Both the position numbers and the translations under genes were made by a program. A DNA stretch of 64,000 nt from Promethearchaeota archaeon (GTDB lineage Archaea > Asgardarchaeota > Lokiarchaeia > Sigyniarchaeales > SOKP01), in NCBI GenBank assembly GCA_016840165.1, contig JAEOSU010000051.1, positions 64,001-128,000 on the forward strand, given 5' to 3'. Of this stretch, positions 39,250-54,346 are shown in pieces; the first letter of the stretch is position 1, and each line of letters begins with the position of its first letter. A model generated the notes under the pieces. That model was not told where the DNA came from and did no database searches. It worked only from the letters and a program-made list of their open reading frames with translations.

Positions 39250-40482
39250 TTATTGATCTTTAGGCACTTTAATTTCAATATCAGAAAGAGGGTAAGAACT
39301 ACAAGGATGAATATATCCATATTTTTTGTCCGCGGCTCGCCTCCAATCCGAAATCGGGTTGACGAAGACTTCACCGGAAATTAATTGCGATCGGCAAAAC
39401 CCACACTCACCTGAGCGACATTTTGAAGGAGGCGCAAACTTTGCTCTTTCCATTGCGACAATTAAAGATTCTGTAGCTAATGCGGGGATTTCTTCTGTCA
39501 ATTCCCCCATATGAACAATCATCTTAAAGGATTTTTCAGCAAGTTCTTGGGGATATCCAGGAAGTCCAACCACATCCTTAACTTCTCCAAAAGCTTCTCT
39601 TCTAATACGTCTTAATGCAAGATTAAATTGTTCTAATTCCTTCTCAACGAAATTGTACATAATCTGTGGACCACATAAGAAAATAGAACTATTATCGATA
39701 TTGCAATGCTTTCTAATAATATCAGCAGTGATAAACCCTTGTTCACAACCTTCTAATGAAACCACTTCACAGCTTAAAATGTATATTATCTTGAATTTCT
39801 CTGGATATTTTTTTTCTAACGCTTTAAGTTCGTCGTAGTAAATAATATCATCCTCATTACTACTGCCATATAATAAGGTTAATTTCGCGTCAATTGTATT
39901 CTCAATAATCGCTTTTGCGATTGAACGAAAGGGAGTAATCCCCGAGCCACCTGCTATACCTACAATTTGTTTGGAATCTCTTAAGCGATCAAAGTAGAAA
40001 AAGCCTTCAGGCCCAGAACTTTCAATCTGCGTACCAACTTCCCAATGATCCCAAATATAAGATGTTAAAAATCCAGCTTCTTCCTTTCTAATGGTCAATT
40101 CATAAAAACCCTTAAGCGCATCATTAGGAGAAGATGCAATTGAATAAGGTCTCGTTATTTCTGTTCCATTTACATTAACTTTCAAGCTTAAATATTGCCC
40201 TGGCCTGAAGTAAGCGAGCTCAGTTGTACCCAAATCTTTATTTGGTATCAATTTAAAAGTTTTTGTGCTCTTTGTCTCATTTTTTATGCTCTTAATAATT
40301 AAAAATTGTCGAATAGGATGAAGCTTAGTAGCTAATTCATTCATAGGATCTGTTGTGATAGGTTCACTAGATGCTTTTTCAAAACGTTTCTTTCTACTTG
40401 TAGATAATTTCATAAAGGCAAGTAAATCGCGTGAAGTGCTTTTAATAGTAACATCCAATCTTTTATTATCTTCTTGATTCAT
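39250..40482 (-). CDS. FNR-type FAD/NAD(P) reductase with C-terminal [2Fe-2S] ferredoxin, copy 1
   Basis: FRPGQY, RPYSIASSP, AGGSGITPF, LCGPQ, E.FG, CRSGECGFC...C; start overlaps the upstream stop codon. Confidence 0.9.
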   Translation of the reverse strand: MNQEDNKRLDVTIKSTSRDLLAFMKLSTSRKKRFEKASSEPITTDPMNELATKLHPIRQFLIIKSIKNETKSTKTFKLIPNKDLGTTELAYFRPGQYLSLKVNVNGTEITRPYSIASSPNDALKGFYELTIRKEEAGFLTSYIWDHWEVGTQIESSGPEGFFYFDRLRDSKQIVGIAGGSGITPFRSIAKAIIENTIDAKLTLLYGSSNEDDIIYYDELKALEKKYPEKFKIIYILSCEVVSLEGCEQGFITADIIRKHCNIDNSSIFLCGPQIMYNFVEKELEQFNLALRRIRREAFGEVKDVVGLPGYPQELAEKSFKMIVHMGELTEEIPALATESLIVAMERAKFAPPSKCRSGECGFCRSQLISGEVFVNPISDWRRAADKKYGYIHPCSSYPLSDIEIKVPKDQ

Positions 40483-42050
40483 TCAATAACCCCCTCTTTT
40501 ATTAGTGATTGTATAGTAAACAAGGCGGCTGTTTCCCCATCCTTTAATGAACTACTATAACCATGTCCTCGTAATCCAAAGCCTCCACAGAATTCTAATC
40601 CTTTAATATGCTTTTCATCATTCATATTTTGAAGCCGTGGTACGACTGAATCCCAGGAGTCTAATTCATAGCCATAAATTACCCCATTATATGTTCCAGT
40701 AAATCTTGAAAACGTTTCTGGTGTAGCAATTTCAATTTCTTCGATATGATCTCGTATTTGAGCACCAGTTGCGTTTTCGAAATTTTTAATTAATCCTTCA
40801 GCAAATTTCGTTTTAAGGTCAAAATATTCCTCGGGCTTAACATTATCCCAAGCTCCTGGACGAAACGCAGATGTGATCGAGATGATGCATGTTCCCGGTG
40901 GTGAACAATTAGGGATTGCTTTATTAAGGCATATTGATGCTTGAACTTTAGGTACTTCTAAATCAATAAGAGAATCATAAAGTTGATCTGTATCCATAGT
41001 ATCACATATAAAATAACTATAATCATTAAGTCCCAATTCATCTGCGGTGGTGTCTAATCCCATATATACCACTATAGTTGTAATACCATGTGTACGAGCA
41101 TTAATCTCCTTAAATGCAATTTCAGGAACTTCTGACTTTGGATGAATTAACTTATTATAAGTTAGTGTCTTGGATGCATTGCATATTAAATGATTTGTAT
41201 TAATCACTTCCCCATTTTGAGTTTCAATTCCCCATACTTGTCCATCTTTTACTAAAATCTTTTCTACTTTCGTATTATATTCAATTTTACCACCATATTC
41301 TCTAATTTTTGCTTCAATTGCAGAGGTATATTCATGAGATCGCATTTTTGGAATATAACCTCCTTTTAAAACATATCCATACACCATCGATGCAAAAACA
41401 GTAGTATTTGCTCTACTTGTGGGAACTCCTAAATACAACCAGTATGCATTTAATAACGCTCTTGCTTTTTTAGGAATATTAAGTGCATCTTGGACGTCAT
41501 CAATAGGATATGCAGCAGTCCTTAAAAAATTCGTATGTTCCCGTAATAGTACGTCCTGGTCAGGGTTGCCTCTCATTCTACCTACATAATTTGTAGCCTC
41601 ATCAATTTCTTTTCCTAATTGGAAAAAATTTTTTATTGATTGTTTGGATCCTGGGACTTGTCTCTCAATAGCCTCAATAAAATCCTCAATACCGAAAGGT
41701 AATACAGCATCAATTTTCTCTTCTGGATTAGTCACTATCAAGCGATAAGCCTCAGGTACGGGTACAAATTCTGTATCTATTTGTAATTTATCTTGAAGAA
41801 GTCTCCGAATCCCTCCATTCTGTTCTGGCGTCCCATAATCATATAATTCGTGCAAAGATGTCTCAAATTCGAATCTTCCTCTCACATAACTCGATGCGAA
41901 GCCACCAGGTAGATTATGTTGTTCAAGTAGAAGAACTTTTGCTCCCTTCATCGCAACACGAGCCGCTGCAACCAAACCCCCATTTCCTGCCCCGATTACG
42001 ATGACATCATAAGTTCTATTATCTTTTCCTTTATTATTTTGTTCATTCAT
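40479..42050 (-). CDS. CrtI/CrtISO/RetSat-like FAD-dependent oxidoreductase, copy 1
   Basis: VIGAGNGG, EQHNLPGG, RGRFEFE, EIEIATPETFSRFTG..NG.IYG, GLEFCGG. Confidence 0.87.
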   Translation of the reverse strand: MNEQNNKGKDNRTYDVIVIGAGNGGLVAAARVAMKGAKVLLLEQHNLPGGFASSYVRGRFEFETSLHELYDYGTPEQNGGIRRLLQDKLQIDTEFVPVPEAYRLIVTNPEEKIDAVLPFGIEDFIEAIERQVPGSKQSIKNFFQLGKEIDEATNYVGRMRGNPDQDVLLREHTNFLRTAAYPIDDVQDALNIPKKARALLNAYWLYLGVPTSRANTTVFASMVYGYVLKGGYIPKMRSHEYTSAIEAKIREYGGKIEYNTKVEKILVKDGQVWGIETQNGEVINTNHLICNASKTLTYNKLIHPKSEVPEIAFKEINARTHGITTIVVYMGLDTTADELGLNDYSYFICDTMDTDQLYDSLIDLEVPKVQASICLNKAIPNCSPPGTCIISITSAFRPGAWDNVKPEEYFDLKTKFAEGLIKNFENATGAQIRDHIEEIEIATPETFSRFTGTYNGVIYGYELDSWDSVVPRLQNMNDEKHIKGLEFCGGFGLRGHGYSSSLKDGETAALFTIQSLIKEGVIE

Positions 42051-42086
42051 TAAATCTAACCTTTTAGAAAGATAAATTAATAGAAA

Positions 42087-42117
42087 TTATTTCAATAAAT
42101 CTTTTTCTTAATTAATA
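42087..42117 (-). promoter_or_regulatory. Putative promoter (BRE/TATA-like plus upstream TATTAATTA) of operon copy 1
   Basis: 25/31 identical to 50917-50947 at an equivalent distance from the paralogous start codon. Confidence 0.55.
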
Positions 42118-42234
42118 CATTATTTTTCTAAGAAGTAGAAAATATTAATAAACTAAAAGATCATAAATCTATAATTAAATAGCAATAATTCAAATTAAAA
42201 AAAAGAATATAGTTAATTTTTAGGTGAAAATAAG

Positions 42235-45201
42235 TTGAAAACATTAACTGTTGATGAAAAGATTGAGGACTTTAAAAGTCAACTAAATTTGCTGGCTATG
42301 ATATTTGATACCCGCAGAAAAATGCGTAGAGAGATCCAAAATGAGAAAACGGGTTTTACTTTTAATGCAAAATATCAATTTAAAACGAAAGATGATAAAG
42401 TTAATCTTTATGTTATTTTTAAAGATGGTAAAATGACAGTTTATGATGGTAAAATTGATGATCCAAACATTACCATCTATTACAAAGATAAAGAAACCTT
42501 GGCAAACCTTTATGATAAGAGTGCTGATGAATCTCTTGATTATCTCTTAACAAATGAAATGGGTTATGATGGTAATATGTCCTATCTTACCAAGTTCTCT
42601 TATCTTACTTCACTTGTCATGGGTGCCAAAATTAAAGATTATAAAGGACCAGAAAATCGATTAATGTACCCCATTGAAGACATTGATAAAGGAGAGAAGA
42701 GTAGGAAGATTAAAAATGAAAGTCTGAATTATAAAGTCGATAATGTTAAGGCATTGGATGATCCTTATTTAGCAAAATACACTTTAGATGACTTTCCTCG
42801 CTTAAAATATTTAAAAAATAGACGATTTGCCTTAAAACCAGCAATTTGCGTCGAAAGGGCAAAGTTAGTAACTGAATATCATCAGGAGAATGGATTTGAA
42901 ACAGATAAATCTGGAAAACCTTTTGATCCAGAACTAAGACAGGCGGGAGCAGTAAATTATATTATGACTCATAAAGAACCAATTATTCATGATCATCATT
43001 TAATTGCAGGATCTACAACTTCAAAAGAAGTGGGTATCCCTATGTATCCCGAATTAATTGCAACTGCAATCTGGCCTGAACTAAAAACAATCTGTGATCG
43101 CGAACTTAATCCTAACGATATTTCTGATAAAGATGCAGATATTTTAAGCTTAGAAGTGTTCCCCTATTGGATGGAGCGAAATGTCAGAGAGCATTGTAGA
43201 AATAAATTCAACAATCCTAAATCACAAAAGTTGGAGGAAGGATGGGTTTTCTATTTTATGATGAAGACCAACGCAATAAGCCATACGGTTCCCGGTTTTC
43301 CAATGGTTCTCAACGAGGGATTATTGAGTGTTAAACAAAAAGCCGCTAATTTGGAGCAGAAAGCTACATCCTCTGAAGAGAAGAATTTTTATAATGCTAT
43401 ACAGATAACCATTGATGGAGTTATTACGTATTCAAATCATTTAAGTGACCATGCTTTAAAGCTTGCTGAAACATTAGACCCTAATGATCCAAAACAAGAG
43501 GTACGCATAGAAGAATTAAAACAAATCTCTAAGATCTGTAAAAAGGTACCAGCCCATCCTGCTGAGACGTTACATGAAGCTATTCAATCAATATGGACAA
43601 GCTTTGTTTGCTTACATTGTGAAAATGCGAATTCTGCACTGTCCATAGGGCGATTAGATCAAATGTTACAGCCATTTTTCCTTAAAGAGATACAAAAAGC
43701 TTCAAATGACAGGGAAAGAGAAGATGTAGTGAAAAAGGCAATCGAACTTGTAGGATCACTATTTGTTAGAATAAATGATCATGATCCATTAATGCCAAAC
43801 GTAGGATGGAAGCTATTTGGCGGTAGTTCTTCGGATGATACTGTAACCGTCGGTGGAGTCGATAAAAACGGTGATAATGCGGTAAATGATATGACTTACA
43901 TTATTTTAAAAACAAATGAGATGTTAGGATTCCAAGATCCCAATATGAATGCCCGATACCATTCAGGGATTAATTCAAAAGAATATCTGCGTCGCTTATG
44001 CGAAGTAAACGTTAATATGGGTGCCTCACCTAGCATCCATAACGATAAAACAATGATCGAAGCATTAATCCATGAGGGATTTTCACTTGAGGATGCTCGA
44101 GGTTGGGCTGCTACAGGTTGTGTAGAGCCTACGATTGTAGGCAAACATTACGGTCACACAAATTGTATGTTATTAAATTTAGTTGCCCCACTCGAAATGG
44201 CATTAAACAATGGTGCTATTCCCTTAACAGGGGATTTAATAGGTCCAGCGACAGGAGACACAAGATCTGCGTTTTCTACCTTTCAAGATTTCTACGATGC
44301 TTACAAAACTCAACTAAAATATTTAGCTGAACAATCCATAGAGATTAATAACTACCTTGGAGAATCACATAAATATGTACATCCTACTCCTTTATTATCA
44401 GCATTTTATGAGGGACCTTTAGAAAAGGGAAAAGATCTAATTCACGGCGGCGCCATTTATAACACTTCTGGGGTTGCTCTTGTAGCCTTAACAGATGTTG
44501 TTGATAGCTTGTTAGTGATCAAGGATCTAGTCTATGAAAAGAAAGAATTTGATTTTGCAACCTTAATGGATGCTATCGAACATAATTTTGAAAATGAATA
44601 TGAATCTATTTTGAAAAAAATAGAAAATGTACCAAAATTCGGCAGCGGTGAGGATGGTACCATTGAACTCGCTCAAGATTTGATTGATTACTGCTATGAA
44701 ATATATAATTCTGCTAAAAATTATAGAGGTGGGAAATATTTAGTGGGTTATTGGTCTATTAGCTATCATACTGGTTTTGGAATGCTTACTGGGGCATTGC
44801 CTTCTGGAAGGAAAAAAGGAAAAGCCTTAACTCCTGGCTTAACACCTGCCCCAGGAACTACTGATATCTTACTTCCGAGTATTCGAAGTGTTGGTAGTTT
44901 AAATCATTTAAAGATGGCCAACAATGCTTCTTATAATGTAAAATTAGTCCCCCATCCTGGTGATTCACATAAAGAAACTCTTGACCTATTTAATAGTTAT
45001 GTTCAAAGCTTTTTCGATCTAGGAGGCATGCAGTGGCAATTTAATGTAATTAAAACAGAAACTCTTAGAAATGCAATGGAGCATCCGATGGATTATCGTT
45101 GGTTACTAGTAAGAGTGTCGGGCTATAATGCTTACTTTACGAAACTCAATAAAAATATGCAATTAGAAATAATTGAACGACATGAGTATCAATCAAAATA
45201 A
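42235..45201 (+). CDS. Glycyl radical enzyme (PFL superfamily, eliminase-like) with N-terminal SCP2-like domain
   Basis: Gly loop LLVRVSGYNAYF; Cys loop ATGCVEP; SIGRLDQ; N-terminal ~130 aa (YQFKT..VIFKDGKMTVYDG..DDPNITI....GNMSYLTKF) resembles SCP2. Confidence 0.9.
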   Translation: MKTLTVDEKIEDFKSQLNLLAMIFDTRRKMRREIQNEKTGFTFNAKYQFKTKDDKVNLYVIFKDGKMTVYDGKIDDPNITIYYKDKETLANLYDKSADESLDYLLTNEMGYDGNMSYLTKFSYLTSLVMGAKIKDYKGPENRLMYPIEDIDKGEKSRKIKNESLNYKVDNVKALDDPYLAKYTLDDFPRLKYLKNRRFALKPAICVERAKLVTEYHQENGFETDKSGKPFDPELRQAGAVNYIMTHKEPIIHDHHLIAGSTTSKEVGIPMYPELIATAIWPELKTICDRELNPNDISDKDADILSLEVFPYWMERNVREHCRNKFNNPKSQKLEEGWVFYFMMKTNAISHTVPGFPMVLNEGLLSVKQKAANLEQKATSSEEKNFYNAIQITIDGVITYSNHLSDHALKLAETLDPNDPKQEVRIEELKQISKICKKVPAHPAETLHEAIQSIWTSFVCLHCENANSALSIGRLDQMLQPFFLKEIQKASNDREREDVVKKAIELVGSLFVRINDHDPLMPNVGWKLFGGSSSDDTVTVGGVDKNGDNAVNDMTYIILKTNEMLGFQDPNMNARYHSGINSKEYLRRLCEVNVNMGASPSIHNDKTMIEALIHEGFSLEDARGWAATGCVEPTIVGKHYGHTNCMLLNLVAPLEMALNNGAIPLTGDLIGPATGDTRSAFSTFQDFYDAYKTQLKYLAEQSIEINNYLGESHKYVHPTPLLSAFYEGPLEKGKDLIHGGAIYNTSGVALVALTDVVDSLLVIKDLVYEKKEFDFATLMDAIEHNFENEYESILKKIENVPKFGSGEDGTIELAQDLIDYCYEIYNSAKNYRGGKYLVGYWSISYHTGFGMLTGALPSGRKKGKALTPGLTPAPGTTDILLPSIRSVGSLNHLKMANNASYNVKLVPHPGDSHKETLDLFNSYVQSFFDLGGMQWQFNVIKTETLRNAMEHPMDYRWLLVRVSGYNAYFTKLNKNMQLEIIERHEYQSK

Positions 45202-45241
45202 ATAATTTTTATTTTTTAATTTTTAAAATTTTAGAATGTAA

Positions 45242-46138
45242 ATGAAAATTAAACCTTTAGTAGTAGATATTAAGAGAAATGCCTTAGATGATGGTCCGGG
45301 GATAAGAACATTAATCTTTTTCAAAGGCTGTCCATTATCTTGTGCTTGGTGTCAAAATCCAGAAGCTAAATCTCCAACAAAAGAGCTATATTTTGATCGC
45401 GATAAATGTATTGAATGCGAGATGTGCTTAACGAGATGTGAACAGAATGCTATAGATTTTGAATATGAATATCGTATTCATCGAAATCTGTGCAATTTAT
45501 GCGGTGCTTGTATTAATATCTGCCCAAACGATGCTTTAAAATTTGTAGGTAAAGAATACAGCATTGATGAATTAGTAAAGATTATATTAAAGGATAAAGT
45601 CTTTTTTGATAATTCTAATGGAGGGGTAACCCTTTCGGGAGGAGAACCGCTTTACCATATTGATTATGTCCATGATTTATTAATTAAATTAAAAAAAAAT
45701 AAGATTCATACCTGTATAGAGACATGTGGACTCTATAATCAGTCAGAATTTAATGAACTTATTTTACCATACATAGATTTAATCTATTTTGATTTGAAGA
45801 TTTTTAATCCAGAATTACATGCTCAATATTGTCAAGTCTCAAATCAAAAAATTCTTGAAAATTTCGAAGATTTAATTAAGAAACATAAAGAACTACTGCC
45901 ACGGATTCCGCTAATTCCTAATATAACCGATACCCCTCAAAATTTAACGGATTTAGCAAAATATTTAAAATCATTAAATATCAAAACTATTGGACTACTC
46001 CCTTATAATCCATTATGGATCTCAAAATCCGAGAAAATTGGAATAAGGCCAATGTATAATTATTCTCGGTGGTTAAACAAAGATGAGAAAGAAAAAATTA
46101 AACTCATTTTTTCTGAATTTGAATTTAAAGATTTTTAA
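45242..46138 (+). CDS. Glycyl-radical enzyme activating protein with ferredoxin insert
   Basis: DGPGIRT..F.KGCPLSCAWCQNPE; two extra CxxCxxCxxxC motifs; GGVTLSGGEP; RIPLIP. Confidence 0.95.
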   Translation: MKIKPLVVDIKRNALDDGPGIRTLIFFKGCPLSCAWCQNPEAKSPTKELYFDRDKCIECEMCLTRCEQNAIDFEYEYRIHRNLCNLCGACINICPNDALKFVGKEYSIDELVKIILKDKVFFDNSNGGVTLSGGEPLYHIDYVHDLLIKLKKNKIHTCIETCGLYNQSEFNELILPYIDLIYFDLKIFNPELHAQYCQVSNQKILENFEDLIKKHKELLPRIPLIPNITDTPQNLTDLAKYLKSLNIKTIGLLPYNPLWISKSEKIGIRPMYNYSRWLNKDEKEKIKLIFSEFEFKDF

Positions 46139-46262
46139 ATCTTTAGGAGATTTTTTTGAAGTTTATACCCTCTTAAAATAAGATATCCTCTCTTTTTTTT
46201 AATATTTATATAGTTTTAAAGTCTAAAAAATATTAATGACAAAATATTAGGAGATAAATTAT

Positions 46263-48050
46263 ATGGGAAAAATCTTAAGAATTGATTTAGGATCTAAGAA
46301 CTTTACCACAGAAGATGTAGATCCTGAATTAGAAGAAAAATATATTGGTGGAGCGGGAGTTGCAGCTGCAATCTTCATCAAGGAAGTTCCTCCAAATATA
46401 GATCCATATGATCCTCAAAACCTCCTTATCTTTTCTGTTGGTCCAATTTGTGGAACTGCAATCCCCTACTGTGGTAGACATTTTGTTATGGCAAAATCTC
46501 CCTTAACTAGAATTCTAGGTGAATCTTCTGCTGGTGGATTTTTTGGAAATGAATTAAGAAGAACGGGGTATGATCATATTATCATTAGCGGAGTGAGTGA
46601 GAGCCCTGTCTACTTATGGATTTATGACGATAATGTTGAAATTCGAGACGCTACAAAGCTATGGGGTAAAGGAACTAGAGAGACAGAGGATCTTCTATGC
46701 GCAGAAATTGATGATGATAAAGCAAAGATTGCATCAATTGGTCCTGCTGGAGAAAATCTTGTGAAATTTTCCTCAATTATGAATGAGAAAGGTCATGCTG
46801 CAGGACGTTGCGGGATGGGTGCTGTAATGGGCAGTAAAAATTTAAAAGCAATAGTTGTGCGTGGTACTAAAGATGTACCCATCGATAATAGAGATAAATT
46901 AATGGATTCAGCCCGAAAAATAAGAACAATTGGAAAAATTTTCCCCCTTGCTGTAGCAACGCAAGAATTAGGTACCCCTGGACATATGGATAATTATGTA
47001 AGTGCAGGAGATGTACCGATCAAGAATTTTACTCTAAGTAGATGGAAAGGAACAAAAAATATTGGATATTATGCACTAAAAGACAACTATGAAATAAAAC
47101 ATTATTCATGTTTTAATTGTGGGACTGCTTGTAGAGGAAATATAAATTTCAATAATGATTGGGTTGAGTGGCCAGAATATGAATTCTTAGCAATGTTGGG
47201 TTCTAACTTACTTGTGGATGATTTAGATGCCTTAGTAAGATGGAATATTATGGTTAATGATTATGGAATGGATTGCATTTCTCTTGGTGGTATTCTCGCT
47301 GTTTTTCTTGAAGCAATAGAGAGAAAGTTAATTGACATAAATTATGAGGAACTTGGTTTCGAAAAGGATCCTGAATCGGATGAATATATCATATGGAGTG
47401 CTATTTCAGCAATTGAGAATTTAATCACATTAACTGCATTTCGAAAGGAGATTGGCGATGATTTAGCTGATGGAGTACGACTCTTTTGTCAAAAATACAG
47501 TTTACCAGATGATCTTAATATTCAGGGAAAAGGTCTTGAGGTTCCTGCTCATGAACCTCGCTCAAATAATATGACTGCTTTAGATCTCGCTACATCTTCT
47601 CGTGGGGCATATCATGGTTTTGAACCTCTTCATTTATCATTTGCCGCCAATTTAAAAAAGGAAATAGGCCTTACAGAGCGAATTGATCCTTATAATACTA
47701 TTGAATCTGTAAGCGCAGTAAAGAAAATCCAAGATGCGTCTGAGGCTTATACTGCAACTGGTGGTTGCATTTTTGGGTTTTGGTATTCATCAGAGATTAC
47801 ACCATGGGTGGATGCTGTAAATGCAATTACTGGAAGATCCTACACAGTTGAAGATTGGGTCCAGATTGGAGAAAACTTATTTAATATGAAACGGAATTAT
47901 AATGAAAAATGCGGAATTACGAAAAAAGATGATTCACTTGGTTCAAGATTCTCTATACCTATTCCAAAAGGAGGAACTAAGAAAAACGTCCCTCCACTTA
48001 AAGAAATGCTTCAGAATTATTATTCTCTTAGAGGATGGAATATGGATTGA
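46263..48050 (+). CDS. aor: Aldehyde:ferredoxin oxidoreductase (tungstopterin AOR family)
   Basis: GKILRIDL, KSPLT, SIGPAGENLV, AAGRCGMGAVMGSKNLKAI, CFNCGTAC, PEYE, DCIS, YYSLRGW. Confidence 0.93.
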   Translation: MGKILRIDLGSKNFTTEDVDPELEEKYIGGAGVAAAIFIKEVPPNIDPYDPQNLLIFSVGPICGTAIPYCGRHFVMAKSPLTRILGESSAGGFFGNELRRTGYDHIIISGVSESPVYLWIYDDNVEIRDATKLWGKGTRETEDLLCAEIDDDKAKIASIGPAGENLVKFSSIMNEKGHAAGRCGMGAVMGSKNLKAIVVRGTKDVPIDNRDKLMDSARKIRTIGKIFPLAVATQELGTPGHMDNYVSAGDVPIKNFTLSRWKGTKNIGYYALKDNYEIKHYSCFNCGTACRGNINFNNDWVEWPEYEFLAMLGSNLLVDDLDALVRWNIMVNDYGMDCISLGGILAVFLEAIERKLIDINYEELGFEKDPESDEYIIWSAISAIENLITLTAFRKEIGDDLADGVRLFCQKYSLPDDLNIQGKGLEVPAHEPRSNNMTALDLATSSRGAYHGFEPLHLSFAANLKKEIGLTERIDPYNTIESVSAVKKIQDASEAYTATGGCIFGFWYSSEITPWVDAVNAITGRSYTVEDWVQIGENLFNMKRNYNEKCGITKKDDSLGSRFSIPIPKGGTKKNVPPLKEMLQNYYSLRGWNMD

Positions 48051-48083
48051 TAAAAGTAAAATAAATTACTTTTTTTTATTTAA

Positions 48084-49313
48084 TTAGCTTCTTGGTATTT
48101 CCATCTCAAGATTGCTTAATGGATATGAGGAACAAGGGTGAAAGTATTTCAATATTTTATCGGCTGTTCTCCTCCCATCATTTTTTGGATTTACAAATAT
48201 CTCACCAGAAATTAATTCCGAACGGCAAAAACCACATTGGCCGGATCGACATACCGAGGGAGGAGCCAATTTGGCTCGTTCCATTGCTACTAATACACTT
48301 TCATGTGCGTTAGCGGGGATATCTTTTGATAAATTTCCTATCCTTACTTTGATTTTAAATGATTTTTCTGCCATTTTCTTTGGATAATTAGGTAAAGAAA
48401 CTATATCCTTCACTTCTCCATACACTTCTTTTCGAATACGATTCGTTGGTAAGTTAAATTTACTCAATTCCTTATCAATAAAATCATACATTACTTGAGG
48501 GCCACAAATAAAGACGGAACTATTACTAAAGTCACAATATTTTTCAATTATACCTGCGGTAATAAATCCCTGTTCACAACCGTCTAAGCTAACCTCCTCA
48601 CAACTTAAAACATGGACAATTTTAATTTTCTCAGGATCTCTACTTTCATATTCCTTAAATTCATCATAAAATAGAATATCATCCTCTTCACTACTACCAT
48701 AAAGTAGAGTTAAACTGATATTTAATTTACCCTCCATAATCTCTTTTGCCATTGATCTAAATGGGGTTATCCCCGAACCGCCCGCTATTCCGATGACTTC
48801 TTTTAAGTCTCGAATGGGATCATAATAAAAATAACCATTAGGTCCAGAACTCTTTATTTTAGTATTTTTCTCCCAATTCTCCCATACATATTCTGTAAGG
48901 AATCCGTGGTCTTCTTTTCGAATCGTAATCTCATAAAAACCTCTTAACGCATCTGAAGGAGATGAAGATATAGAGTATGGACGTGTGATTGGAGTTCCAT
49001 CTACATCAACTTTTAAACTGAGGAACTGCCCCGCTCTGAAATAAGCAACTTTATCCGTACTTGAATCTGGATCGGGAATAAGCCTGTAGGTTTTAGCAGA
49101 TTTAGTTTCTTCTTTTATTTCACTAATCATTAAATTTTGAATTGAAGGATGTAGAAGTTGAGCTAGATTATTTACAGGATCAGATTTTATAAACTCCTCA
49201 GATGCTTTGTCAATATTTTTTCTACGTTGTGAAGTCAAATTTTTAAATGCTAATAAATCTCGAATATTTCCCTTTACTGATACCTTCAATTTCTGCTTTT
49301 GATCTTCTTTCAC
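48084..49313 (-). CDS. FNR-type reductase with C-terminal [2Fe-2S], copy 2
   Basis: FRAGQF, RPYSISSSP, AGGSGITPF, ICGPQ, CRSGQCGFC; paralog of 39250-40482. Confidence 0.9.
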   Translation of the reverse strand: MKEDQKQKLKVSVKGNIRDLLAFKNLTSQRRKNIDKASEEFIKSDPVNNLAQLLHPSIQNLMISEIKEETKSAKTYRLIPDPDSSTDKVAYFRAGQFLSLKVDVDGTPITRPYSISSSPSDALRGFYEITIRKEDHGFLTEYVWENWEKNTKIKSSGPNGYFYYDPIRDLKEVIGIAGGSGITPFRSMAKEIMEGKLNISLTLLYGSSEEDDILFYDEFKEYESRDPEKIKIVHVLSCEEVSLDGCEQGFITAGIIEKYCDFSNSSVFICGPQVMYDFIDKELSKFNLPTNRIRKEVYGEVKDIVSLPNYPKKMAEKSFKIKVRIGNLSKDIPANAHESVLVAMERAKLAPPSVCRSGQCGFCRSELISGEIFVNPKNDGRRTADKILKYFHPCSSYPLSNLEMEIPRS

Positions 49314-50881
49314 TCAGAATCACCTGTTTCATTTAATTCTTGTAAAGTTAAAAAGGCGGCTATTTGACCAGAGAGTAAAGCATTTGTATAACTCTGGCAA
49401 TTTGCAGAAAAGCCTCCACAAAATTCTAGACCTTTAATATATTTTTCATTGTTCATTTCCATTAATCTGGGCATAAAAGAATCCCAAGGGTCTGTTTCAT
49501 ATCCGTATGCCGAACCTCCGAATGTTCCCGTATATCTTGCTAATGTTTGGGGCGTAGCAATTTCAATCTCTTCAATGTGTTCTCTTATAGAGGTTTTCGT
49601 TGCAAATTCAAAGGTATTTATTAAATGTCGAGCGATTTTATTTTTCAAATTAAAATAATCTTCAGAGCTTACATCCTTCCATGCTTCGGGAAGAAAAAAA
49701 GCTGTAATTGTAAGAATACATGTACCTGGTGGAGAGCAATCAGGGTTTACTTTATTTAAGCATATTGTTGCCTGAGCTTTAGGAGGATTTAATGTTTTAA
49801 AGGATTCATAAATTTCTTCAGTATTAGTTGTATCATAAATATGGTAACTATAATTTTCAATTCCTAATTCTTCAGCACTCGCATTCAAACCCAAATATAC
49901 AACAAAACAACTGATTGCATGTCGTCGGGCATTCATGGTTTTTAAAGCTTGTTTCGGTACCTCATTTTTAGGAAATATTAAATTATTATAAACTAATGTA
50001 GGGGATGCATTTGAAATCACGTGGTTTGTCTTAATTTTATCTCCTTGATTAGTTTCTACGCCTATAACTTGCCTATCTTTAACAATTACTTTATTTACTT
50101 TCGTGTTATAAAGGATTTTACCCCCTTTTTCTCTAATCAAGGATTCTAGGGCCGCAGTATATCCGTGGGAGCGATATTTTGGGACATATGCTTTTCGGAT
50201 TAAAAAATAATAATGCATAGCAGCATAAAAAGTAAAGTTAGCCCTGCTCGTTGGAATGCCAATATAGCACCAATAGGCATCTAAAATGTTTTGAGCCTTT
50301 TTAGGAATCTTTAATGCGTCATTTACCTCATCTAAAGTATATGGTGCCGTTTTTAAAAAGTTCTTATAATTTGCAATAAGTATATCTTTTTCTGGATTTC
50401 CTTCCGATTCAGTAATATAGCTAATTGCATTGGTAATTTCTTCTGAAAGTAATATATAATTTCGAATAGATTCCTCACTTCCAGGAACTTCTCTTTCCAT
50501 CATAGTTATATATTCTTCTCTTCCAAATGGAACAAGAACGTCTAATTTTTCATTTGGGTCATTAATAATTAATCGAAATGCTTCAGGAATCTCTACGAAC
50601 TCGATATTTAATCCCAAATCTTCCTCAAAAAGCTTCCTTATGGCTCCTTTATTTGATTTAGGGCCATAATCGCACAACTCATGCAATGTGCCCTCAAACT
50701 CAAATCGTCCTCGAACAAAACTAGTTGCAAATCCTCCAAGTAAATTATGTTGTTCGCAGAGCACAACTTTAGCACCTTCGATTGCCAATTGGGCTGCAGC
50801 AATCAATCCTCCATTTCCTCCCCCTATTACAACCGCATCAAAATCCTCCTTTAAAATCTGATCACTGATTTCTTCCACCAT
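49310..50881 (-). CDS. CrtI/CrtISO/RetSat-like FAD-dependent oxidoreductase, copy 2
   Basis: VIGGGNGG, EQHNLLGG, RGRFEFE, EIEIATPQT; ATG at 50881 preferred over GTG at 50890 (GGGGTG SD-like upstream; promoter spacing matches copy 1). Confidence 0.85.
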   Translation of the reverse strand: MVEEISDQILKEDFDAVVIGGGNGGLIAAAQLAIEGAKVVLCEQHNLLGGFATSFVRGRFEFEGTLHELCDYGPKSNKGAIRKLFEEDLGLNIEFVEIPEAFRLIINDPNEKLDVLVPFGREEYITMMEREVPGSEESIRNYILLSEEITNAISYITESEGNPEKDILIANYKNFLKTAPYTLDEVNDALKIPKKAQNILDAYWCYIGIPTSRANFTFYAAMHYYFLIRKAYVPKYRSHGYTAALESLIREKGGKILYNTKVNKVIVKDRQVIGVETNQGDKIKTNHVISNASPTLVYNNLIFPKNEVPKQALKTMNARRHAISCFVVYLGLNASAEELGIENYSYHIYDTTNTEEIYESFKTLNPPKAQATICLNKVNPDCSPPGTCILTITAFFLPEAWKDVSSEDYFNLKNKIARHLINTFEFATKTSIREHIEEIEIATPQTLARYTGTFGGSAYGYETDPWDSFMPRLMEMNNEKYIKGLEFCGGFSANCQSYTNALLSGQIAAFLTLQELNETGDSE

Positions 50882-50916
50882 ATAAGACACCCCAAACTAT
50901 CCAATAATTTAAAATA

Positions 50917-50947
50917 TTATTACAATAAATTTTTGAGATAATTAATA
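50917..50947 (-). promoter_or_regulatory. Putative promoter of operon copy 2
   Basis: Matches 42087-42117 at 25/31 positions. Confidence 0.55.
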
Positions 50948-50976: not shown

Positions 50977-51867
50977 TCACTTTTTCGCAGGTGATGCATA
51001 ACAATATGCACAATTATGTTTACAACGAAATATTCCTGTATATCCTCCAATATCCTTTGATTTATAACAACCACAATACTTTCTCTGACCGGTATCTCTA
51101 ACCTTTTCTATTGGTTCGCCAATTATGGTTTCAATCTTATTAGCATCAATACAATGAGCCTGTGAAATGCCTTTCATTGATAAAAGTTCTGGTTGACAAC
51201 ATGCTTTCATTTTTATTCCTCTCATACAACAAATTTCTATTAATTCGGTTAAGATTTTTTGTTTTTCTTCTGTGTTCAATTCGATTGGGATAAATCCCCT
51301 ATAATTCATTCTAGATTGTACCTTATTGTAAATCGTTGCGAAAGAGAAAATTAATTCATTTATCCCGTACTTAGAAAGGTGTTCTAAAATATACTCAAAT
51401 TTATCTAAATTATTTTTAAGCTCATCATTTCCTTTTTTTTTATAAAAAATAATTGGATCGAATCTAAAACTAAGTGCTGAGATACCAAAGGTATCAATTA
51501 GCCATTTGGATTGTTTGAAACGCTCTTCTAGAGATACTGAAATGCCTTTCTCTAATTCTGAAGGAGAATTAATGGTAAATTGGAATAAATGGCCCTTATA
51601 GGCATTAAATAGAGATTTGTTCGCTTGATAGACTTTAATCCACTCATGAAAGTTTTTACTCCACCATACCCATGCTTTTACATGTTTAGGTGATAATGTG
51701 ACTCGTGATATTTGTTTTCTATTAAATGGGTTAACAACGTCAACATAACCCGCCTTAATTTTACTGATTACCCAATCCATTAAAAAGGCAGGTATATCAG
51801 TTCTTCTAGAACATGAAATTATTTCTGATTTAATTAATTTAAGTTTATATTCTGAAATGTTTACCAT
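50977..51867 (-). CDS. DUF1848 family protein
   Basis: IISCSRRTDIPAF, V.NPFN, WSKN, RFDPI, GQR..CGC..S.DIG, CKHNCAYCYA. Confidence 0.88.
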   Translation of the reverse strand: MVNISEYKLKLIKSEIISCSRRTDIPAFLMDWVISKIKAGYVDVVNPFNRKQISRVTLSPKHVKAWVWWSKNFHEWIKVYQANKSLFNAYKGHLFQFTINSPSELEKGISVSLEERFKQSKWLIDTFGISALSFRFDPIIFYKKKGNDELKNNLDKFEYILEHLSKYGINELIFSFATIYNKVQSRMNYRGFIPIELNTEEKQKILTELIEICCMRGIKMKACCQPELLSMKGISQAHCIDANKIETIIGEPIEKVRDTGQRKYCGCYKSKDIGGYTGIFRCKHNCAYCYASPAKK

Positions 51868-51884
51868 ACCAACTCTATTAATTT

Positions 51885-53462
51885 TTAGTTTAAATATGCC
51901 AACATTGATAAAATGAATAATTCTTCGGTAATATCTTCCGAAGATTTACGCTTGAGCTCTTCCTTTAGGTGATTATAGATCATTAAATGTGGATTAAAAA
52001 ACGCAAAACCTTGATTGATATCTTCTTCTAATACTTCTCGAAAATGAGGATTTAGCCATATTTCAAATGGCCCTGAACTATGCTCGGCTTTATATTGAAT
52101 TTGAAACTCTTTTTTTAGTATGAAAATAACCTCATAGACTGTTTTACAAATCTGGAGTAATTTTTCAGAATTTTCCCTATAGAAATAATGAATTGGGACA
52201 GGTAGACGCATATGAAGAAGTAATCCCTTTCCCTTGCGAAAATTAATGTGACCATATCCGAAAATAACTTTATGAAAACCACTTTTCGTGAAAATAGAAT
52301 TGATAGTATTTATGATATCGGGTAAAAATTTAGGTTGGCTTAAGATGTCTTCAAATCCTGGAAATGCAATATGATTAGTATCATCTTCAGAAGTTTGAAC
52401 TAATATGGCAAATGAAGACCTTTCTTGCATATATTTTTGGTATTCTTCCTCGGTCAGTTTAGTCCAATAACATGCACATTCACCTATCATGGTTTTAATA
52501 AAATTACTAACAATATTCCTCCTTCCTTTAATTAAAACGGCCCAATTTACTTTAAAATCCTCGGATTGCTTCTTAGCTGGGGCTAATTTACCAAACTCTC
52601 CTGGTAATTTTATCGGTGAAGTTACAAATTCACTCACGAGGGGGAGTATCCTAGCATCTAATACTTTTTGTAATCCATTAAATGCTGAAGTTAAATCCTC
52701 ACCAAATAATATTGCCTCTTCTAAGTTTACATCTGGCTGATATAATCTGAAGTTTGCACTTAATACGATTCCATAAAAACCATTACCACCTACAATCTTT
52801 TCAAATAACGAATCATTTCTATCAATTGCGATAATCTCACCATTTGGGAGCATAACTCTCATATCAATAATCCATTCAATTGCTGCTCCTAATTTACCTG
52901 ATGTTATGCCACTAGCATTTGATGCAATTAATCCTCCAACGCGAACTGGTAATTTGAAAGAACTTGCTGGTTGAACTGGAAAAATATATCTTCCTTTTGA
53001 TTCGAAGTTCACCACCTTTATCAAATCGGATACTAAGGTGCTCTGTTCTGCATAAACCTTCTTTTGTGATAGATCAAGTATAATTTGCTCGGAATCGGAA
53101 TGCATAGCCTCAAGATCAACTAAAGCACCGAAATTTGCGAAACCTCCTGATAGACCCGTTTTTCCAGACGCAAAAGTTATCGGTATTTTAAAGCTTTGTG
53201 ATTGAATTACAAAATCTCGTAGTTGATCTTCATTTCTTGGACGAAAAATTATATAAGGTTTTAAACTCAAAAGTGATGGGTCTCTGATTGTACCTGAGCT
53301 AATATCATTATCGACTATAATTATTTTCCCAGAATTTAACAAATTTTTTTCGGTAGTAGTGAGGGATTTAGCAAATTGAAATCCTTTTTTTACCATAACA
53401 TCTATAAACGCCTGCCAAGGTAATTTTTTTTGTAACTCTTCGGAGATACTCAGCATCAACAT
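51885..53462 (-). CDS. FAD-binding oxidoreductase (VAO/GlcD/D-lactate dehydrogenase superfamily)
   Basis: SGKTGLSGG, PVQPAS, VGGLIASNASG, VMLPNGE, G.NG.YGIV, C-terminal AEH. Confidence 0.8.
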   Translation of the reverse strand: MLMLSISEELQKKLPWQAFIDVMVKKGFQFAKSLTTTEKNLLNSGKIIIVDNDISSGTIRDPSLLSLKPYIIFRPRNEDQLRDFVIQSQSFKIPITFASGKTGLSGGFANFGALVDLEAMHSDSEQIILDLSQKKVYAEQSTLVSDLIKVVNFESKGRYIFPVQPASSFKLPVRVGGLIASNASGITSGKLGAAIEWIIDMRVMLPNGEIIAIDRNDSLFEKIVGGNGFYGIVLSANFRLYQPDVNLEEAILFGEDLTSAFNGLQKVLDARILPLVSEFVTSPIKLPGEFGKLAPAKKQSEDFKVNWAVLIKGRRNIVSNFIKTMIGECACYWTKLTEEEYQKYMQERSSFAILVQTSEDDTNHIAFPGFEDILSQPKFLPDIINTINSIFTKSGFHKVIFGYGHINFRKGKGLLLHMRLPVPIHYFYRENSEKLLQICKTVYEVIFILKKEFQIQYKAEHSSGPFEIWLNPHFREVLEEDINQGFAFFNPHLMIYNHLKEELKRKSSEDITEELFILSMLAYLN

Positions 53463-53476
53463 CCCTATTTTCTTAA

Positions 53477-54346
53477 TTAAAGGTCTTTTAGGAGATTATA
53501 CATATTTTGAAGGCTTTTTTTAGATATATTCTCTTTATTTCTTAATACATGTGTTTCAAGGCAGAAATATCCTTTATAATCAAAATCAATTGCTTGTTTA
53601 AATAGTGATTCATAATCAATTTTTCCATCTCCCACCACAGTAAATATGCCCGTTATGCCTGGAATCATATATTTGGGATCTTTTACATGAATATGTTTAA
53701 CCAGATCTTTTTCATAGAAGTAACTGTAGGCTTCTGGTGTTGTTGGATCTCCTTCCATATAGTAATTACCTGGATCTAAAATCAATTTTAGTGCTTCTGA
53801 ATTAAATTCTTCAAAAAACAGTTTTGTGTTTTCTATATTAGCAACCATCAGTAAATAATCATTCTCCAGTAGCAAAGTTTTTCCTAACTCCTCAGCTCTT
53901 TTAACATGAGGCGTGAGTAACTCAATCATTTCTTGCCATTTCTCTTTTACCTTATTCTTTCTCTTTTGGAAGAAGGAAAAGATCCTAATATTGGGGGTTT
54001 CAAAAAAGTCTGAGATCTCTATGATTCGTTCAAATAATCCCAAGTTGAATTTGGGATTTCTTAATAGATTTTTCTTTTTGCTTGTAGAAAATCTTGAACT
54101 CGGAAGAACACACCTTCCAAAAGGACTAGTGATAACATTTACATGCATATTTCTTTCTTCTAAAGCTCTCTTCATCTTGAGTAATTCATTCTCATTTAAT
54201 AAGGCAATATTCTTATTCCATAAAGTTCTTACATCAATAGCTGTAATATTATATTCAGCAGCTACATCTAAGGCATGCTCAAAATCTTGGCTTATTTCAT
54301 CAGTGACAACTGAGATCTGATTTGTATGATTCATAATAAATTCCAA
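53477..54346 (-). CDS. Sugar phosphate isomerase/epimerase (xylose-isomerase-like TIM barrel)
   Basis: TDEISQD, IRIFSF, LLEN, DPGN, HIHVKD, VGDGKIDY, LETH. Confidence 0.87.
   Translation of the reverse strand: MEFIMNHTNQISVVTDEISQDFEHALDVAAEYNITAIDVRTLWNKNIALLNENELLKMKRALEERNMHVNVITSPFGRCVLPSSRFSTSKKKNLLRNPKFNLGLFERIIEISDFFETPNIRIFSFFQKRKNKVKEKWQEMIELLTPHVKRAEELGKTLLLENDYLLMVANIENTKLFFEEFNSEALKLILDPGNYYMEGDPTTPEAYSYFYEKDLVKHIHVKDPKYMIPGITGIFTVVGDGKIDYESLFKQAIDFDYKGYFCLETHVLRNKENISKKSLQNMYNLLKDL

What the first reader, a model, noticed from the sequence alone, without database searches (positions are those of the whole stretch)
39250..50947. SCP2-fused glycyl radical enzyme + activase + AOR bracketed by two CrtI-like/FNR-[2Fe-2S] operons: candidate uncharacterised anaerobic lipid-transformation system
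Seen: a three-gene run (GRE, activase, AOR) with a paralogous two-gene operon on each side. Each flanking operon is a CrtI/RetSat-like flavoprotein translationally coupled, via a 4-nt stop/start overlap, to an FNR-[2Fe-2S] reductase. Copy 1 shares a divergent intergenic region with the GRE. Established: CrtI, CrtISO and RetSat act on C=C bonds of isoprenoid lipids; SCP2 domains bind lipids; GRE eliminases often yield aldehydes, which AORs oxidise. Inference: a pathway that reduces or isomerises double bonds in a hydrophobic substrate (isoprenoid chain, ether lipid, steroid or hydroxy fatty acid), performs radical C-O elimination, and oxidises the aldehyde with ferredoxin. I know of no characterised system with this composition.
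Basis: partly seen in the sequence, partly recalled or inferred. Interest (0 to 1): 0.88.

Follow-up and report, generated by a model that had tools for sequence, protein, structure and literature searches.

The report
Radical enzyme cluster flanked by flavoenzyme pairs
Seven intact genes in an Asgard archaeon form three separately inherited modules (a lipid-carrier-fused radical enzyme with its activator and an aldehyde oxidiser, plus two copies of an unstudied two-protein flavoenzyme) that probably share a greasy-substrate theme but are not one fixed pathway.

Summary
In detail: all seven genes, both 4-nt overlaps, the paralogy (56% and 62% identity) and the SCP2 fold on the glycyl radical enzyme (GRE) are real.

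The "one system" reading is only partly supported. The stretch holds three modules:
- **SCP2-GRE + activase.** An AOR follows in this archaeal family.
- **Two old paralogous CrtI-like/FNR-[2Fe-2S] pairs.**

The modules separate in relatives:
- In the window's genus, GRE and CrtI/FNR lie side by side in about a dozen genomes. Two genomes keep the GRE without the pair; six keep the pair without the GRE.
- In five other Asgard genera whose genomes I searched for both genes, and in the bacterial GRE loci read, they were never found together.
- One independent exception exists: a rumen-type Clostridia genome has CrtI-FNR and SCP2-GRE in one co-directional run.

The CrtI/FNR pair is a strict two-gene unit (79 of 80 loci, many from gut and rumen anaerobes). 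Its predicted complex is strong (ipSAE 0.93, best control 0.00). Its closest characterised analogue is limonene dehydrogenase CtmAB with CtmE/F.

A third pair in this genome lies in a beta-oxidation/SCP2 cluster, and acyl-CoA hydratases recur beside SCP2-GREs elsewhere. This supports a shared lipid theme.

This scan has noted SCP2-GREs many times before, on other DNA. No substrate is known.

The parts
39250..40482 (-). FNR-[2Fe-2S] reductase, copy 1 (410 aa): FAD_binding_6, NAD_binding_1 and a C-terminal Fer2 domain, plus a ~60-aa N-terminal arm
   Evidence: Pfam and NCBIfam. C355, C360, C363 and C394 are invariant in 27 relatives. The N-terminal arm (residues 9-55) is the main predicted contact with CrtI1.
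40479..42050 (-). CrtI-family flavoprotein, copy 1 (523 aa), overlapping the reductase gene by 4 nt
   Evidence: The profile matches PDB 4rep and 4dgk. F62-E-T-S-L-H67 is invariant where CrtI has F-D-A-G-P-T.
42051..42234 (.). Divergent intergenic spacer between CrtI1 and the GRE
   Evidence: It is only weakly conserved among genus relatives: one ~45-nt AT-rich block is shared with four of them.
42235..42654 (+). SCP2-fold domain of the GRE (residues 1-140)
   Evidence: AF2 model pLDDT 88.6. The top 44 Foldseek PDB matches all have the SCP2 fold. It is conserved at 46-98% in 55 family members and at 31-36% in four N-termini of the distant GRE paralogue clade.
42235..45201 (+). Glycyl radical enzyme, 988 aa (TTG start)
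   Evidence: H350, C629, E631, H638, H641, N643 and G963 are invariant in 115 family members.
45242..46138 (+). GRE activase (radical SAM with a ferredoxin-like insert)
   Evidence: TIGR02494 297.7 bits, cut-off 174. It is adjacent to the GRE in most loci of the family.
46263..48050 (+). Tungsten-type aldehyde:ferredoxin oxidoreductase (595 aa)
   Evidence: AFOR_N and AFOR_C. PDB 1aor 380 bits, 9mqx 393 bits. 80-81% orthologues follow GRE-activase co-directionally in genus g12.
48084..49313 (-). FNR-[2Fe-2S] reductase, copy 2 (409 aa)
   Evidence: 62% identical to copy 1.
49310..50890 (-). CrtI-family flavoprotein, copy 2 (526 aa, GTG start), with a 4-nt GTGA overlap
   Evidence: It belongs to a separate old paralogue lineage, shared with G007, G016 and G024.

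Best explanation
The stretch is a genus-specific juxtaposition of three separately inherited modules, not one fixed pathway.

**Module A: SCP2-GRE, activase and AOR.**
- Inferred: the SCP2 domain presents a hydrophobic substrate.
- Shown by motif only: the activated Gly963/Cys629 pair works with Glu631 and His350.
- Inferred: this performs a radical 1,2-elimination next to a carbinol (loss of water, an alkoxide or another leaving group) and yields an aldehyde.
- Inferred: the AOR oxidises the aldehyde to an acid, with ferredoxin as acceptor. The acid enters acyl-CoA metabolism.

**Modules B and C: two old paralogues of a two-protein flavoenzyme.**
- A CrtI-family subunit is bound by an FAD/NAD/[2Fe-2S] reductase through the reductase's N-terminal arm (predicted complex).
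- Inferred: the complex links NAD(P)H or NAD(P)+ to redox chemistry at a C=C bond or an allylic carbon of a hydrophobic chain. This could be saturation, or CtmAB-like allylic hydroxylation or desaturation.

The modules probably serve a common theme, anaerobic use of lipid- or isoprenoid-like compounds. They can cooperate, but each also works without the other.
For: **Module A is a unit**
- GRE plus activase are adjacent in Asgard and bacterial loci.
- GRE-ACT-AOR is co-directional in the window, G007 and G021, and in genus g12 at 80-81% AOR identity with no CrtI/FNR nearby.
- The SCP2 fold is supported.
- C-V-E and the His164 equivalent are invariant.

**Modules B and C are units**
- CrtI and FNR are adjacent in 79 of 80 loci across archaea and many bacterial phyla.
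- The 4-nt overlap is kept in relatives.
- Predicted complex: ipSAE 0.93 (three runs, 0.93-0.94), best of 3 controls 0.00. That mark was reached by 58 of 80 solved complexes and 2 of 110 mismatched pairs. Partner pLDDT is at least 88, and the runs agree in at least 96% of contacts.

**The modules are separable**
- GRE without the pair: G010 and G023. The pair without GRE: G003, G004, G019, G008, G002 and G015.
- Tandem pairs occur with no GRE between them: L048, L049, L059.
- In five other Asgard genera searched for both genes, no CrtI1-type gene shares a contig with the GRE.

**A facultative link exists**
- About a dozen genus genomes keep the divergent CrtI1/GRE arrangement.
- Independently, the Clostridia MAG G228 has CrtI-FNR-x-ACT-SCP2-GRE in one co-directional run. 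An SCP2-GRE was found in only 1 of 151 genomes sampled from that order.

**A lipid/acyl theme recurs**
- The third CrtI/FNR pair in this genome lies in Thl-DUF35-SCP2-ACS-ECH-CrtI-FNR-SCP2-FeADH. Its ACS-ECH-CrtI-FNR core is kept in seven other genus genomes.
- ECH or MaoC genes lie beside SCP2-GREs in L003 (with an ACAD), L005, L052 and L140.

**Characterised analogue**
- CtmAB, CtmE and CtmF (PMC4109377), and the delta-24 desaturase (PMC11061730).
Against: - No substrate, transcript or biochemical data exist for any of these genes.
- The active site departs from proven diol dehydratases: the Asp447 equivalent is Asn643, and His281/Ser282 are Ser/Ala. Elimination chemistry is therefore an inference from C-x-E, His350 and the AOR neighbour only.
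- Genus relatives are not independent, so about a dozen conserved adjacencies could be inheritance alone.
- The single bacterial juxtaposition is one event.
- Three of 74 bacterial CrtI/FNR loci with any GRE within 6 kb is close to my rough estimate of the chance rate in GRE-rich Clostridia.
- The genome holds about 9 AOR-family genes (10 matches, two of them halves of one frame) and 6 GREs, so some adjacency is cheap.
- The direction of electron flow in the CrtI/FNR complex is unknown.
Confidence: 0.55

Rival explanations
1. One dedicated pathway. The CrtI/FNR enzymes prepare a lipid by reducing or isomerising C=C bonds. The SCP2-GRE then eliminates a C-O group, and the AOR oxidises the aldehyde. 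All seven genes are needed together.
For: - The divergent CrtI1/GRE arrangement is kept in about a dozen genus genomes at only ~60-70% CrtI identity.
- Copy 2 always lies beside an AOR.
- An independent co-directional CrtI-FNR...ACT-SCP2-GRE run exists in the Clostridia MAG G228, where SCP2-GRE is otherwise rare.
- A stand-alone SCP2 gene lies directly after the third CrtI/FNR pair.
Against: - Each module occurs without the other at the very same chromosomal site.
- Two genomes rated 100% complete (G015, G019) keep the pair but gave no match to the GRE's first 260 residues.
- In five other Asgard genera searched for both genes there is no co-location. Five of the six bacterial GRE loci read have no pair nearby.
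- 76 of 80 CrtI/FNR loci have no GRE within 6 kb.
- The second pair is present in only 4 of about 25 genus genomes.
Confidence: 0.2
2. Chance neighbours in a variable genomic hotspot. The region between the CDF transporter and DUF1848 genes gains and loses cassettes. The GRE cassette and the CrtI/FNR pairs have unrelated substrates.
For: - The same backbone (Ldh_2-Ldh_2-CDF ... DUF1848-FAD_binding_4) carries different cassette combinations in different genomes.
- The order of the two CrtI lineages relative to CDF and DUF1848 differs between the window and the tandem arrays.
- The intergenic spacer is poorly conserved.
- The genome has many GRE and AOR paralogues.
Against: - A second, independent juxtaposition exists in a bacterium with a different gene order.
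- Both modules associate independently with SCP2 and acyl-CoA enzymes elsewhere.
Confidence: 0.2
3. The GRE is an alkyl- or benzylsuccinate synthase that activates hydrocarbons by fumarate addition. This was proposed for PflD-like GREs of Hermodarchaeota (PMC8163825).
For: - The published annotation rests on about 30% identity to AssA/BssA and a single active-site Cys.
- SCP2 could carry an alkane.
- Desulfatibacillum aliphaticivorans encodes a 62% homologue.
Against: - The GRE scores far higher against PFL2, HypD and the diol dehydratase (382, 360 and 353 bits) than against TutD (179) or MasD (221).
- It keeps the C-x-E loop and the His164 equivalent.
- There is no room for small beta or gamma subunit genes in the 40-nt and 124-nt gaps.
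- A single Cys is common to all non-PFL GREs.
- The activase is closest to the HypD-type (305 bits) rather than BssD (210 bits).
Confidence: 0.05

Closest known systems
B12-independent glycerol dehydratase (1R8W) and 1,2-propanediol dehydratase (5I2A); A. fulgidus PFL2/PflD (2F3O), function unproven
   Same: GRE fold; Gly loop RVSGY; Cys loop G-C-V-E with the general-base Glu; the His164 equivalent; a dedicated activase with extra Fe-S clusters; an aldehyde-oxidising enzyme as neighbour.
   Different: A 190-residue N-terminal extension with an SCP2 fold. The Asp447 equivalent is an invariant Asn, and the loop K-H-Y-G-H-T-N replaces K-T-E/D-G-W-H-D. His281/Ser282 are Ser/Ala. It falls below the TIGR01774 cut-off (551 vs 678 bits). 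The neighbour is a W-type AOR rather than a CoA-acylating aldehyde dehydrogenase or a microcompartment.
Limonene dehydrogenase CtmAB with CtmE (2Fe-2S ferredoxin) and CtmF (ferredoxin reductase) of Castellaniella defragrans; delta-24 desaturase of Sterolibacterium denitrificans
   Same: A phytoene-desaturase-family (COG1233) flavoenzyme teamed with a [2Fe-2S] carrier and an NAD(P)H-type reductase, acting without O2 on an allylic position of an isoprenoid (PMC4109377, PMC11061730). The window family has an invariant His in F-x-x-S-L-H, which by motif fits the flavinylated His of G-F-L/R-x-N/S-T/L-H-A.
   Different: There is one CrtI-like subunit per module, not an alpha/beta pair. Ferredoxin and reductase are fused in one protein with an N-terminal docking arm. 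The motif fits only in part. I did not align it directly with CtmA/B sequences. No activity is known.
CrtI / CrtISO / RetSat (carotenoid desaturase, isomerase, retinol saturase)
   Same: An N-terminal GxGxxG FAD fold and full-length homology (4rep 110 bits, 4dgk 99 bits with the family profile; best NCBIfam hit carotenoid isomerase at 1e-32).
   Different: Far below the curated cut-offs (91 vs 238 bits for crtI_fam). The F-D-x-G-P motif is replaced. There is an obligate reductase partner. The hosts are strict anaerobes, and no carotenoid genes lie nearby.
PaaE / Hcr / phthalate-dioxygenase-reductase-type FNR-[2Fe-2S] reductases
   Same: FAD_binding_6 - NAD_binding_1 - Fer2 domain order and a Cx4Cx2C...C cluster motif.
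   Different: No oxygenase or hybrid-cluster partner. An extra ~60-aa N-terminal arm is predicted to clamp a CrtI-family flavoprotein.
Pyrococcus furiosus aldehyde:ferredoxin oxidoreductase (1AOR)
   Same: Full-length homology (380 bits) and both AFOR domains.
   Different: One of about nine AOR-family genes in this genome. Its placement directly after a GRE activase has, to my knowledge, not been characterised.

Membership tests
Glycyl radical enzyme superfamily | PFL-like barrel, a C-terminal glycine loop RVxG[FWY], a Cys loop and an adjacent radical-SAM activase | tested here: met
   PF02901 534 bits and PF01228 82 bits. RVSGY and GCVE are invariant in 115 members. The activase lies 40 nt downstream.
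GRE diol dehydratases (glycerol / propanediol) | Cys-x-Glu general base and the His164 equivalent | tested here: met
   C629-V-E631 and H350 align with the PDH and HypD motifs and are invariant.
GRE diol dehydratases (glycerol / propanediol) | Asp447 and His281/Ser282 equivalents that hold the leaving hydroxyl; the curated family score | tested here: not met
   Asn643 replaces the Asp, and Ser467/Ala468 replace His/Ser. TIGR01774 scores 551 bits, below its 678 cut-off, and all equivalog models are far below theirs. The GDH residue numbers are from memory.
X-succinate synthases (BssA/AssA/MasD) | Closest similarity to BssA/AssA, and small beta/gamma subunit genes in the cluster | tested here: not met
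   TutD 179 bits and MasD 221 bits, against PFL2 382 bits. The gaps of 40 and 124 nt hold no small ORF.
SCP2 sterol/lipid carrier fold | An alpha/beta SCP2 fold recognisable by profile and by structure | tested here: met
   Pfam 20.2 bits, just under the 21.3 cut-off, for this protein. 7 of 17 relatives hit SCP2. AF2 pLDDT 88.6, and the top 44 Foldseek hits have the SCP2 fold, TM 0.5-0.7. Lipid binding itself cannot be tested here.
CrtI phytoene desaturase family (TIGR02734) | The curated family score and the F-D-x-G-P motif after the dinucleotide fold | tested here: not met
   91 and 90 bits against a cut-off of 238. The family has F-E-T-S-L-H where 4dgk has F-D-A-G-P-T. Superfamily-level homology is clear.
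CtmAB / delta-24-desaturase type allylic flavoenzymes | The covalent-flavin motif G-F-L/R-x-N/S-T/L-H-A, a heteromeric alpha/beta core, and a 2Fe-2S ferredoxin plus reductase partner | tested here: inconclusive
   F62-x-x-S65-L66-H67 fits 4 of the 7 specified motif positions, and the His is invariant. A [2Fe-2S] domain and a reductase are present, but fused. There is only one CrtI-like subunit per pair.
FNR-[2Fe-2S] reductases (PaaE/Hcr class) | FAD_binding_6 + NAD_binding_1 + a plant-type Fer2 domain with four Cys | tested here: met
   Pfam. C355, C360, C363 and C394 are invariant. No equivalog cut-off is reached.
Tungsten aldehyde:ferredoxin oxidoreductase family | AFOR_N plus AFOR_C domains, with full-length similarity to 1AOR | tested here: met
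   274 and 268 bits. 1aor 380 bits over residues 2-595. Metal and substrate are not testable here.

The most novel reading that the evidence does not exclude
SCP2-GRE/activase/AOR and the CrtI-like/FNR-[2Fe-2S] complexes cooperate in an undescribed oxygen-free route for breaking down isoprenoid or glycerol-ether lipids. The GRE would remove an alkoxy or hydroxyl group next to a carbinol by radical elimination. The AOR would oxidise the resulting aldehyde. The flavoenzyme complexes would saturate or allylically oxidise the released unsaturated chains. The same toolkit would operate in sediment Asgard archaea and in some rumen Clostridia.
Probability: 0.15. Interest if true: 0.9.

Novelty: new variant of a known kind. 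Interest (0 to 1): 0.58.

Why it matters
- How anaerobes attack water-insoluble lipids, ether lipids and isoprenoids without oxygen is poorly known. Published Asgard work labels PflD-like GREs as alkane-activating enzymes on weak grounds (PMC8163825).
- This locus gives three testable enzyme candidates. One is an SCP2-fused GRE with its own active-site signature. Another is its AOR partner.
- The third may be the most useful: a strictly conserved two-protein flavoenzyme. It is common in gut and rumen Clostridia as well as in Asgard archaea, has a confidently predicted complex, and has a characterised analogue (CtmAB/EF) to guide assays.
- The work also warns against reading a striking gene arrangement in one genome as a pathway. 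The bracketing here reflects the history of a single genus.

Tried and rejected
- **Literature.** Full-text searches for "glycyl radical" with SCP2, "sterol carrier" or "ether lipid", and for phytoene with biohydrogenation, found nothing relevant.
- **First structure model.** The AF2 model of residues 1-200 from 17 sequences was poor (pLDDT 56) and its Foldseek hits weak. It was replaced by the 1-140, 60-sequence model.
- **Profile search.** The N-domain profile found no SCP2 entry in the PDB by sequence.
- **Intergenic alignment.** Aligning the CrtI1/GRE spacers found no clear shared operator. Only one AT-rich block is shared by part of the genus.
- **ESM Atlas.** It gave only generic names, "prolycopene isomerase / phytoene desaturase family".
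- **Simple insertion idea, rejected.** I considered that the window equals the tandem arrays plus an inserted GRE cassette. The two CrtI lineages lie in the opposite order relative to CDF and DUF1848, so further rearrangement is needed.
- **Tree.** The careful tree search did not finish. The quick tree (SH-aLRT only) was used.

Full report
**Observation**

The window is AT-rich (about 32% G+C). Between 39250 and 50890 it holds seven intact ORFs.

- Pfam and NCBIfam give two FNR-type reductases with a C-terminal plant-type [2Fe-2S] domain: 39250-40482 and 48084-49313, both on the minus strand.
- Each reductase is overlapped by 4 nt (ATGA, GTGA) by an upstream CrtI/amine-oxidase-family flavoprotein gene: 40479-42050 and 49310-50890.
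- Between the pairs, on the plus strand, lie a 988-aa glycyl radical enzyme (42235-45201), its activase (45242-46138) and an aldehyde:ferredoxin oxidoreductase (46263-48050).
- The two pairs are paralogues: 56% (CrtI) and 62% (FNR) identity.

The first 140 GRE residues form an SCP2 fold.
- Pfam is just sub-threshold for this protein, but it hits 7 of 17 relatives.
- A 60-sequence AF2 model (pLDDT 88.6) gives only SCP2-fold proteins among its 44 best PDB matches.

The only correction is that the last ORF ends at 50890, not 50947.

**The GRE**

- Full-length relatives of about 988 aa occur in many Asgard MAGs, labelled Lokiarchaeota, Hermodarchaeota, Thorarchaeota, Freyarchaeota and Promethearchaeota, at 65-96% identity. 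They also occur in bacteria such as Desulfatibacillum aliphaticivorans and Desulfomonilia at about 62-63%.
- It is below every curated NCBIfam cut-off: PFL2-3 subfamily 551 vs 678 bits, HypD 434 and CutC 422 vs more than 1000.
- Its best solved relatives are A. fulgidus PFL2, HypD and the diol dehydratases. BSS and MAS score far lower.
- The alignments and a 115-member family alignment show invariant Gly963, Cys629-Val-Glu631 and His350. These correspond to the Cys-x-Glu base and the His164 equivalent of the eliminases.
- The same alignments show an invariant K/R-H-Y-G-H-T-N643 loop where the dehydratases have ...W-H-D. Ser/Ala stand where they have His/Ser.
- It is thus eliminase-like, but it is not a member of any characterised eliminase family.
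- The published "Ass/Bss" label for Asgard PflD-like GREs (PMC8163825) rests on weak criteria and does not fit this protein.
- The genome holds six GREs. Only this one matches over the SCP2-bearing N-terminal extension.

**The CrtI-like/FNR pair**

- A scan of species-representative genomes found 80 loci. In 79 of them the FNR-[2Fe-2S] gene directly follows or precedes the CrtI-like gene.
- The hosts include Asgard archaea, many gut and rumen Clostridia, Erysipelotrichaceae, Limosilactobacillus avium, Bacteroides, Treponema, Syntrophaceae and Thermodesulfobacteriota.
- A complex prediction with family alignments gave ipSAE 0.93 (three runs, 0.93-0.94), against a best control of 0.00. That mark was reached by 58 of 80 solved complexes and 2 of 110 mismatched pairs. 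Partner pLDDT was at least 88, and the runs agreed in at least 96% of contacts. This supports binding but does not show it.
- The reductase's unusual ~60-residue N-terminal arm makes most of the contacts.
- The flavoprotein is homologous to CrtI and CrtD along its full length but far below the CrtI family cut-off.
- It has an invariant F-E-T-S-L-His67 where CrtI has F-D-A-G-P-T.
- The closest characterised system is limonene dehydrogenase. [quoted passage not shown]
- The related delta-24 desaturase carries covalent FMN on a His in G-F-L/R-x-N/S-T/L-H-A (PMC11061730). The window family fits this motif only in part.
- Whether the complex reduces C=C bonds with NAD(P)H, or oxidises allylic carbons, remains open.

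**Is it one system?**

I mapped the window's proteins onto loci from relatives.

In the window's genus the backbone is Ldh_2-Ldh_2-CDF-[FNR1-CrtI1]-[GRE-ACT]-[AOR]-[FNR2-CrtI2]-DUF1848-FAD_binding_4.
- The divergent CrtI1/GRE arrangement is present in about a dozen genomes.
- G010 (also seen as L006) and G023 have GRE next to CDF with no CrtI/FNR.
- G003, G004, G019, G008, G002 and G015 have the pair at the same site with no GRE. G015 and G019 are rated 100% complete and gave no match to the GRE's first 260 residues.
- Copy 2 occurs only in the window, G007, G016 and G024.
- L048, L049 and L059 carry two pairs in tandem with no GRE between them.
- A quick tree shows that the two copies belong to old paralogue lineages.

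Outside the genus:
- SCP2-GREs occur in genera g4, g5, g12, g15, g16 and g40.
- In the five of these searched for both genes (g5, g12, g15, g16, g40), no CrtI1-type gene lies on the GRE contig.
- None lies in the loci read around the GRE in g4, g12, g15, g16 or g40.
- Five of the six bacterial GRE loci read have no pair nearby.
- GRE-ACT-AOR, by contrast, is kept co-directionally in genus g12, with an 80-81% identical AOR and no CrtI/FNR.

So the stable units are GRE+ACT (plus AOR in this family) and CrtI+FNR. The bracketing is genus history.

**Evidence that still links the modules**

1. A Clostridia MAG from goat jejunum (L125/G228) has a co-directional run GRE(830 aa)-ACT-x-FAD oxidoreductase-CrtI-FNR-x-ACT-SCP2-GRE.
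   - The last gene is 42% identical to the window GRE over 947 residues. It includes the SCP2 region and the same Cys-loop signature.
   - An SCP2-GRE was found in only 1 of 151 genomes sampled from that order.
   - This is therefore an independent and unlikely coincidence.
2. The genome's third CrtI/FNR pair lies in a run Thl-DUF35-SCP2-ACS-ECH-CrtI-FNR-SCP2-FeADH. Its ACS-ECH-CrtI-FNR core is conserved in seven other genus genomes.
3. Enoyl-CoA hydratase or MaoC genes lie beside SCP2-GREs in four unrelated loci, one of them with a long acyl-CoA dehydrogenase.

Both modules thus keep company with SCP2 and acyl-CoA enzymes independently. This supports a shared hydrophobic-substrate theme and occasional cooperation.

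**Verdict**

- The gene set is real and the components are uncharacterised families of real interest.
- The claim of a single seven-gene lipid-transformation system is only partly supported.
- I put about 0.55 on "separable modules with a shared lipid/isoprenoid theme". I put 0.2 on one obligate pathway, 0.2 on unrelated neighbours in a hotspot, and 0.05 on a fumarate-adding GRE.
- This scan has already noted SCP2-GREs on other DNA: 81 notes in at least 60 genomes. It has also noted this same arrangement in sister genomes, in first-reader notes only. The GRE fusion alone is therefore not new to the scan.
  - the module analysis;
  - the strictly conserved CrtI/FNR complex with its predicted docking arm;
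  - the CtmAB/EF analogy;
  - the independent bacterial juxtaposition.
- No expression data could be obtained.

Noticed in passing
L125:302-13392 (Clostridia MAG, goat jejunum; G228:C22): A nine-gene co-directional run holds two different GRE/activase pairs, an extra FAD oxidoreductase, a CrtI-like/FNR pair and an ATC_hydrolase-like gene. The 1001-aa GRE belongs to the SCP2-GRE family. This may be the best bacterial model for testing a link between the modules.
   Followed up: partly
G000:C54 (L007:5670-15240): A third CrtI-like/FNR pair (34-36% identical to copy 1) is embedded in a beta-oxidation-like cluster with two stand-alone SCP2 genes, acyl-CoA ligases, enoyl-CoA hydratases, SCPx-type thiolases with DUF35 partners and an Fe-ADH. 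No acyl-CoA dehydrogenase lies in the 18 kb read.
   Followed up: partly
L046:6853-12377 (G012:C62): The beta-oxidation-type CrtI3/FNR3 pair is duplicated as an inverted repeat of two pairs (57-60% identical to the L007 CrtI3/FNR3 query). Duplication of this two-gene module thus recurs in a second context.
   Followed up: no
whole genome G000: This 3.6-Mb Asgard genome encodes six GREs and about nine AOR-family genes. That is an unusually large oxygen-sensitive radical and tungsten enzyme set for an archaeon.
   Followed up: no
L048:4036-4776: A V4R/XylR_N-domain gene, a putative small hydrophobic-ligand sensor, lies directly upstream of a tandem CrtI/FNR array in a related MAG. It is a possible regulator that could hint at the substrate class.
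   Followed up: no
L140:2619-18403 (Desulfomonilia): Near a bacterial SCP2-GRE/activase lie a linalool dehydratase-isomerase-family gene (PF18566), a MaoC dehydratase, TetR regulators, an SDR and a DUF362 gene. DUF362 also lies directly upstream of the CrtI/FNR pair in L010.
   Followed up: no
L141:10001-14080: An Ldh_2-family dehydrogenase gene follows a 64%-identical SCP2-GRE after 27 nt, in a locus of unstated origin. Two Ldh_2 genes also belong to the conserved backbone beside the window's cluster (36549-37697 and its neighbour). The closest NCBIfam model is L-sulfolactate dehydrogenase, below its cut-off.
   Followed up: no
L013:12673-14025 (G006): The 1.35-kb space between CrtI1 and CDF gave no match to the FNR query covering at least half its length. 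The reductase may be broken or lost there while the CrtI-like gene stays intact.
   Followed up: no
window 50977-56941: The conserved backbone downstream holds DUF1848, a 525-aa FAD_binding_4 protein (weak GlcD/DprE1 similarity), a xylose-isomerase-like TIM-barrel protein and an 829-aa protein with a faint LanC-like match. All are of unknown role and are kept across the genus.
   Followed up: partly
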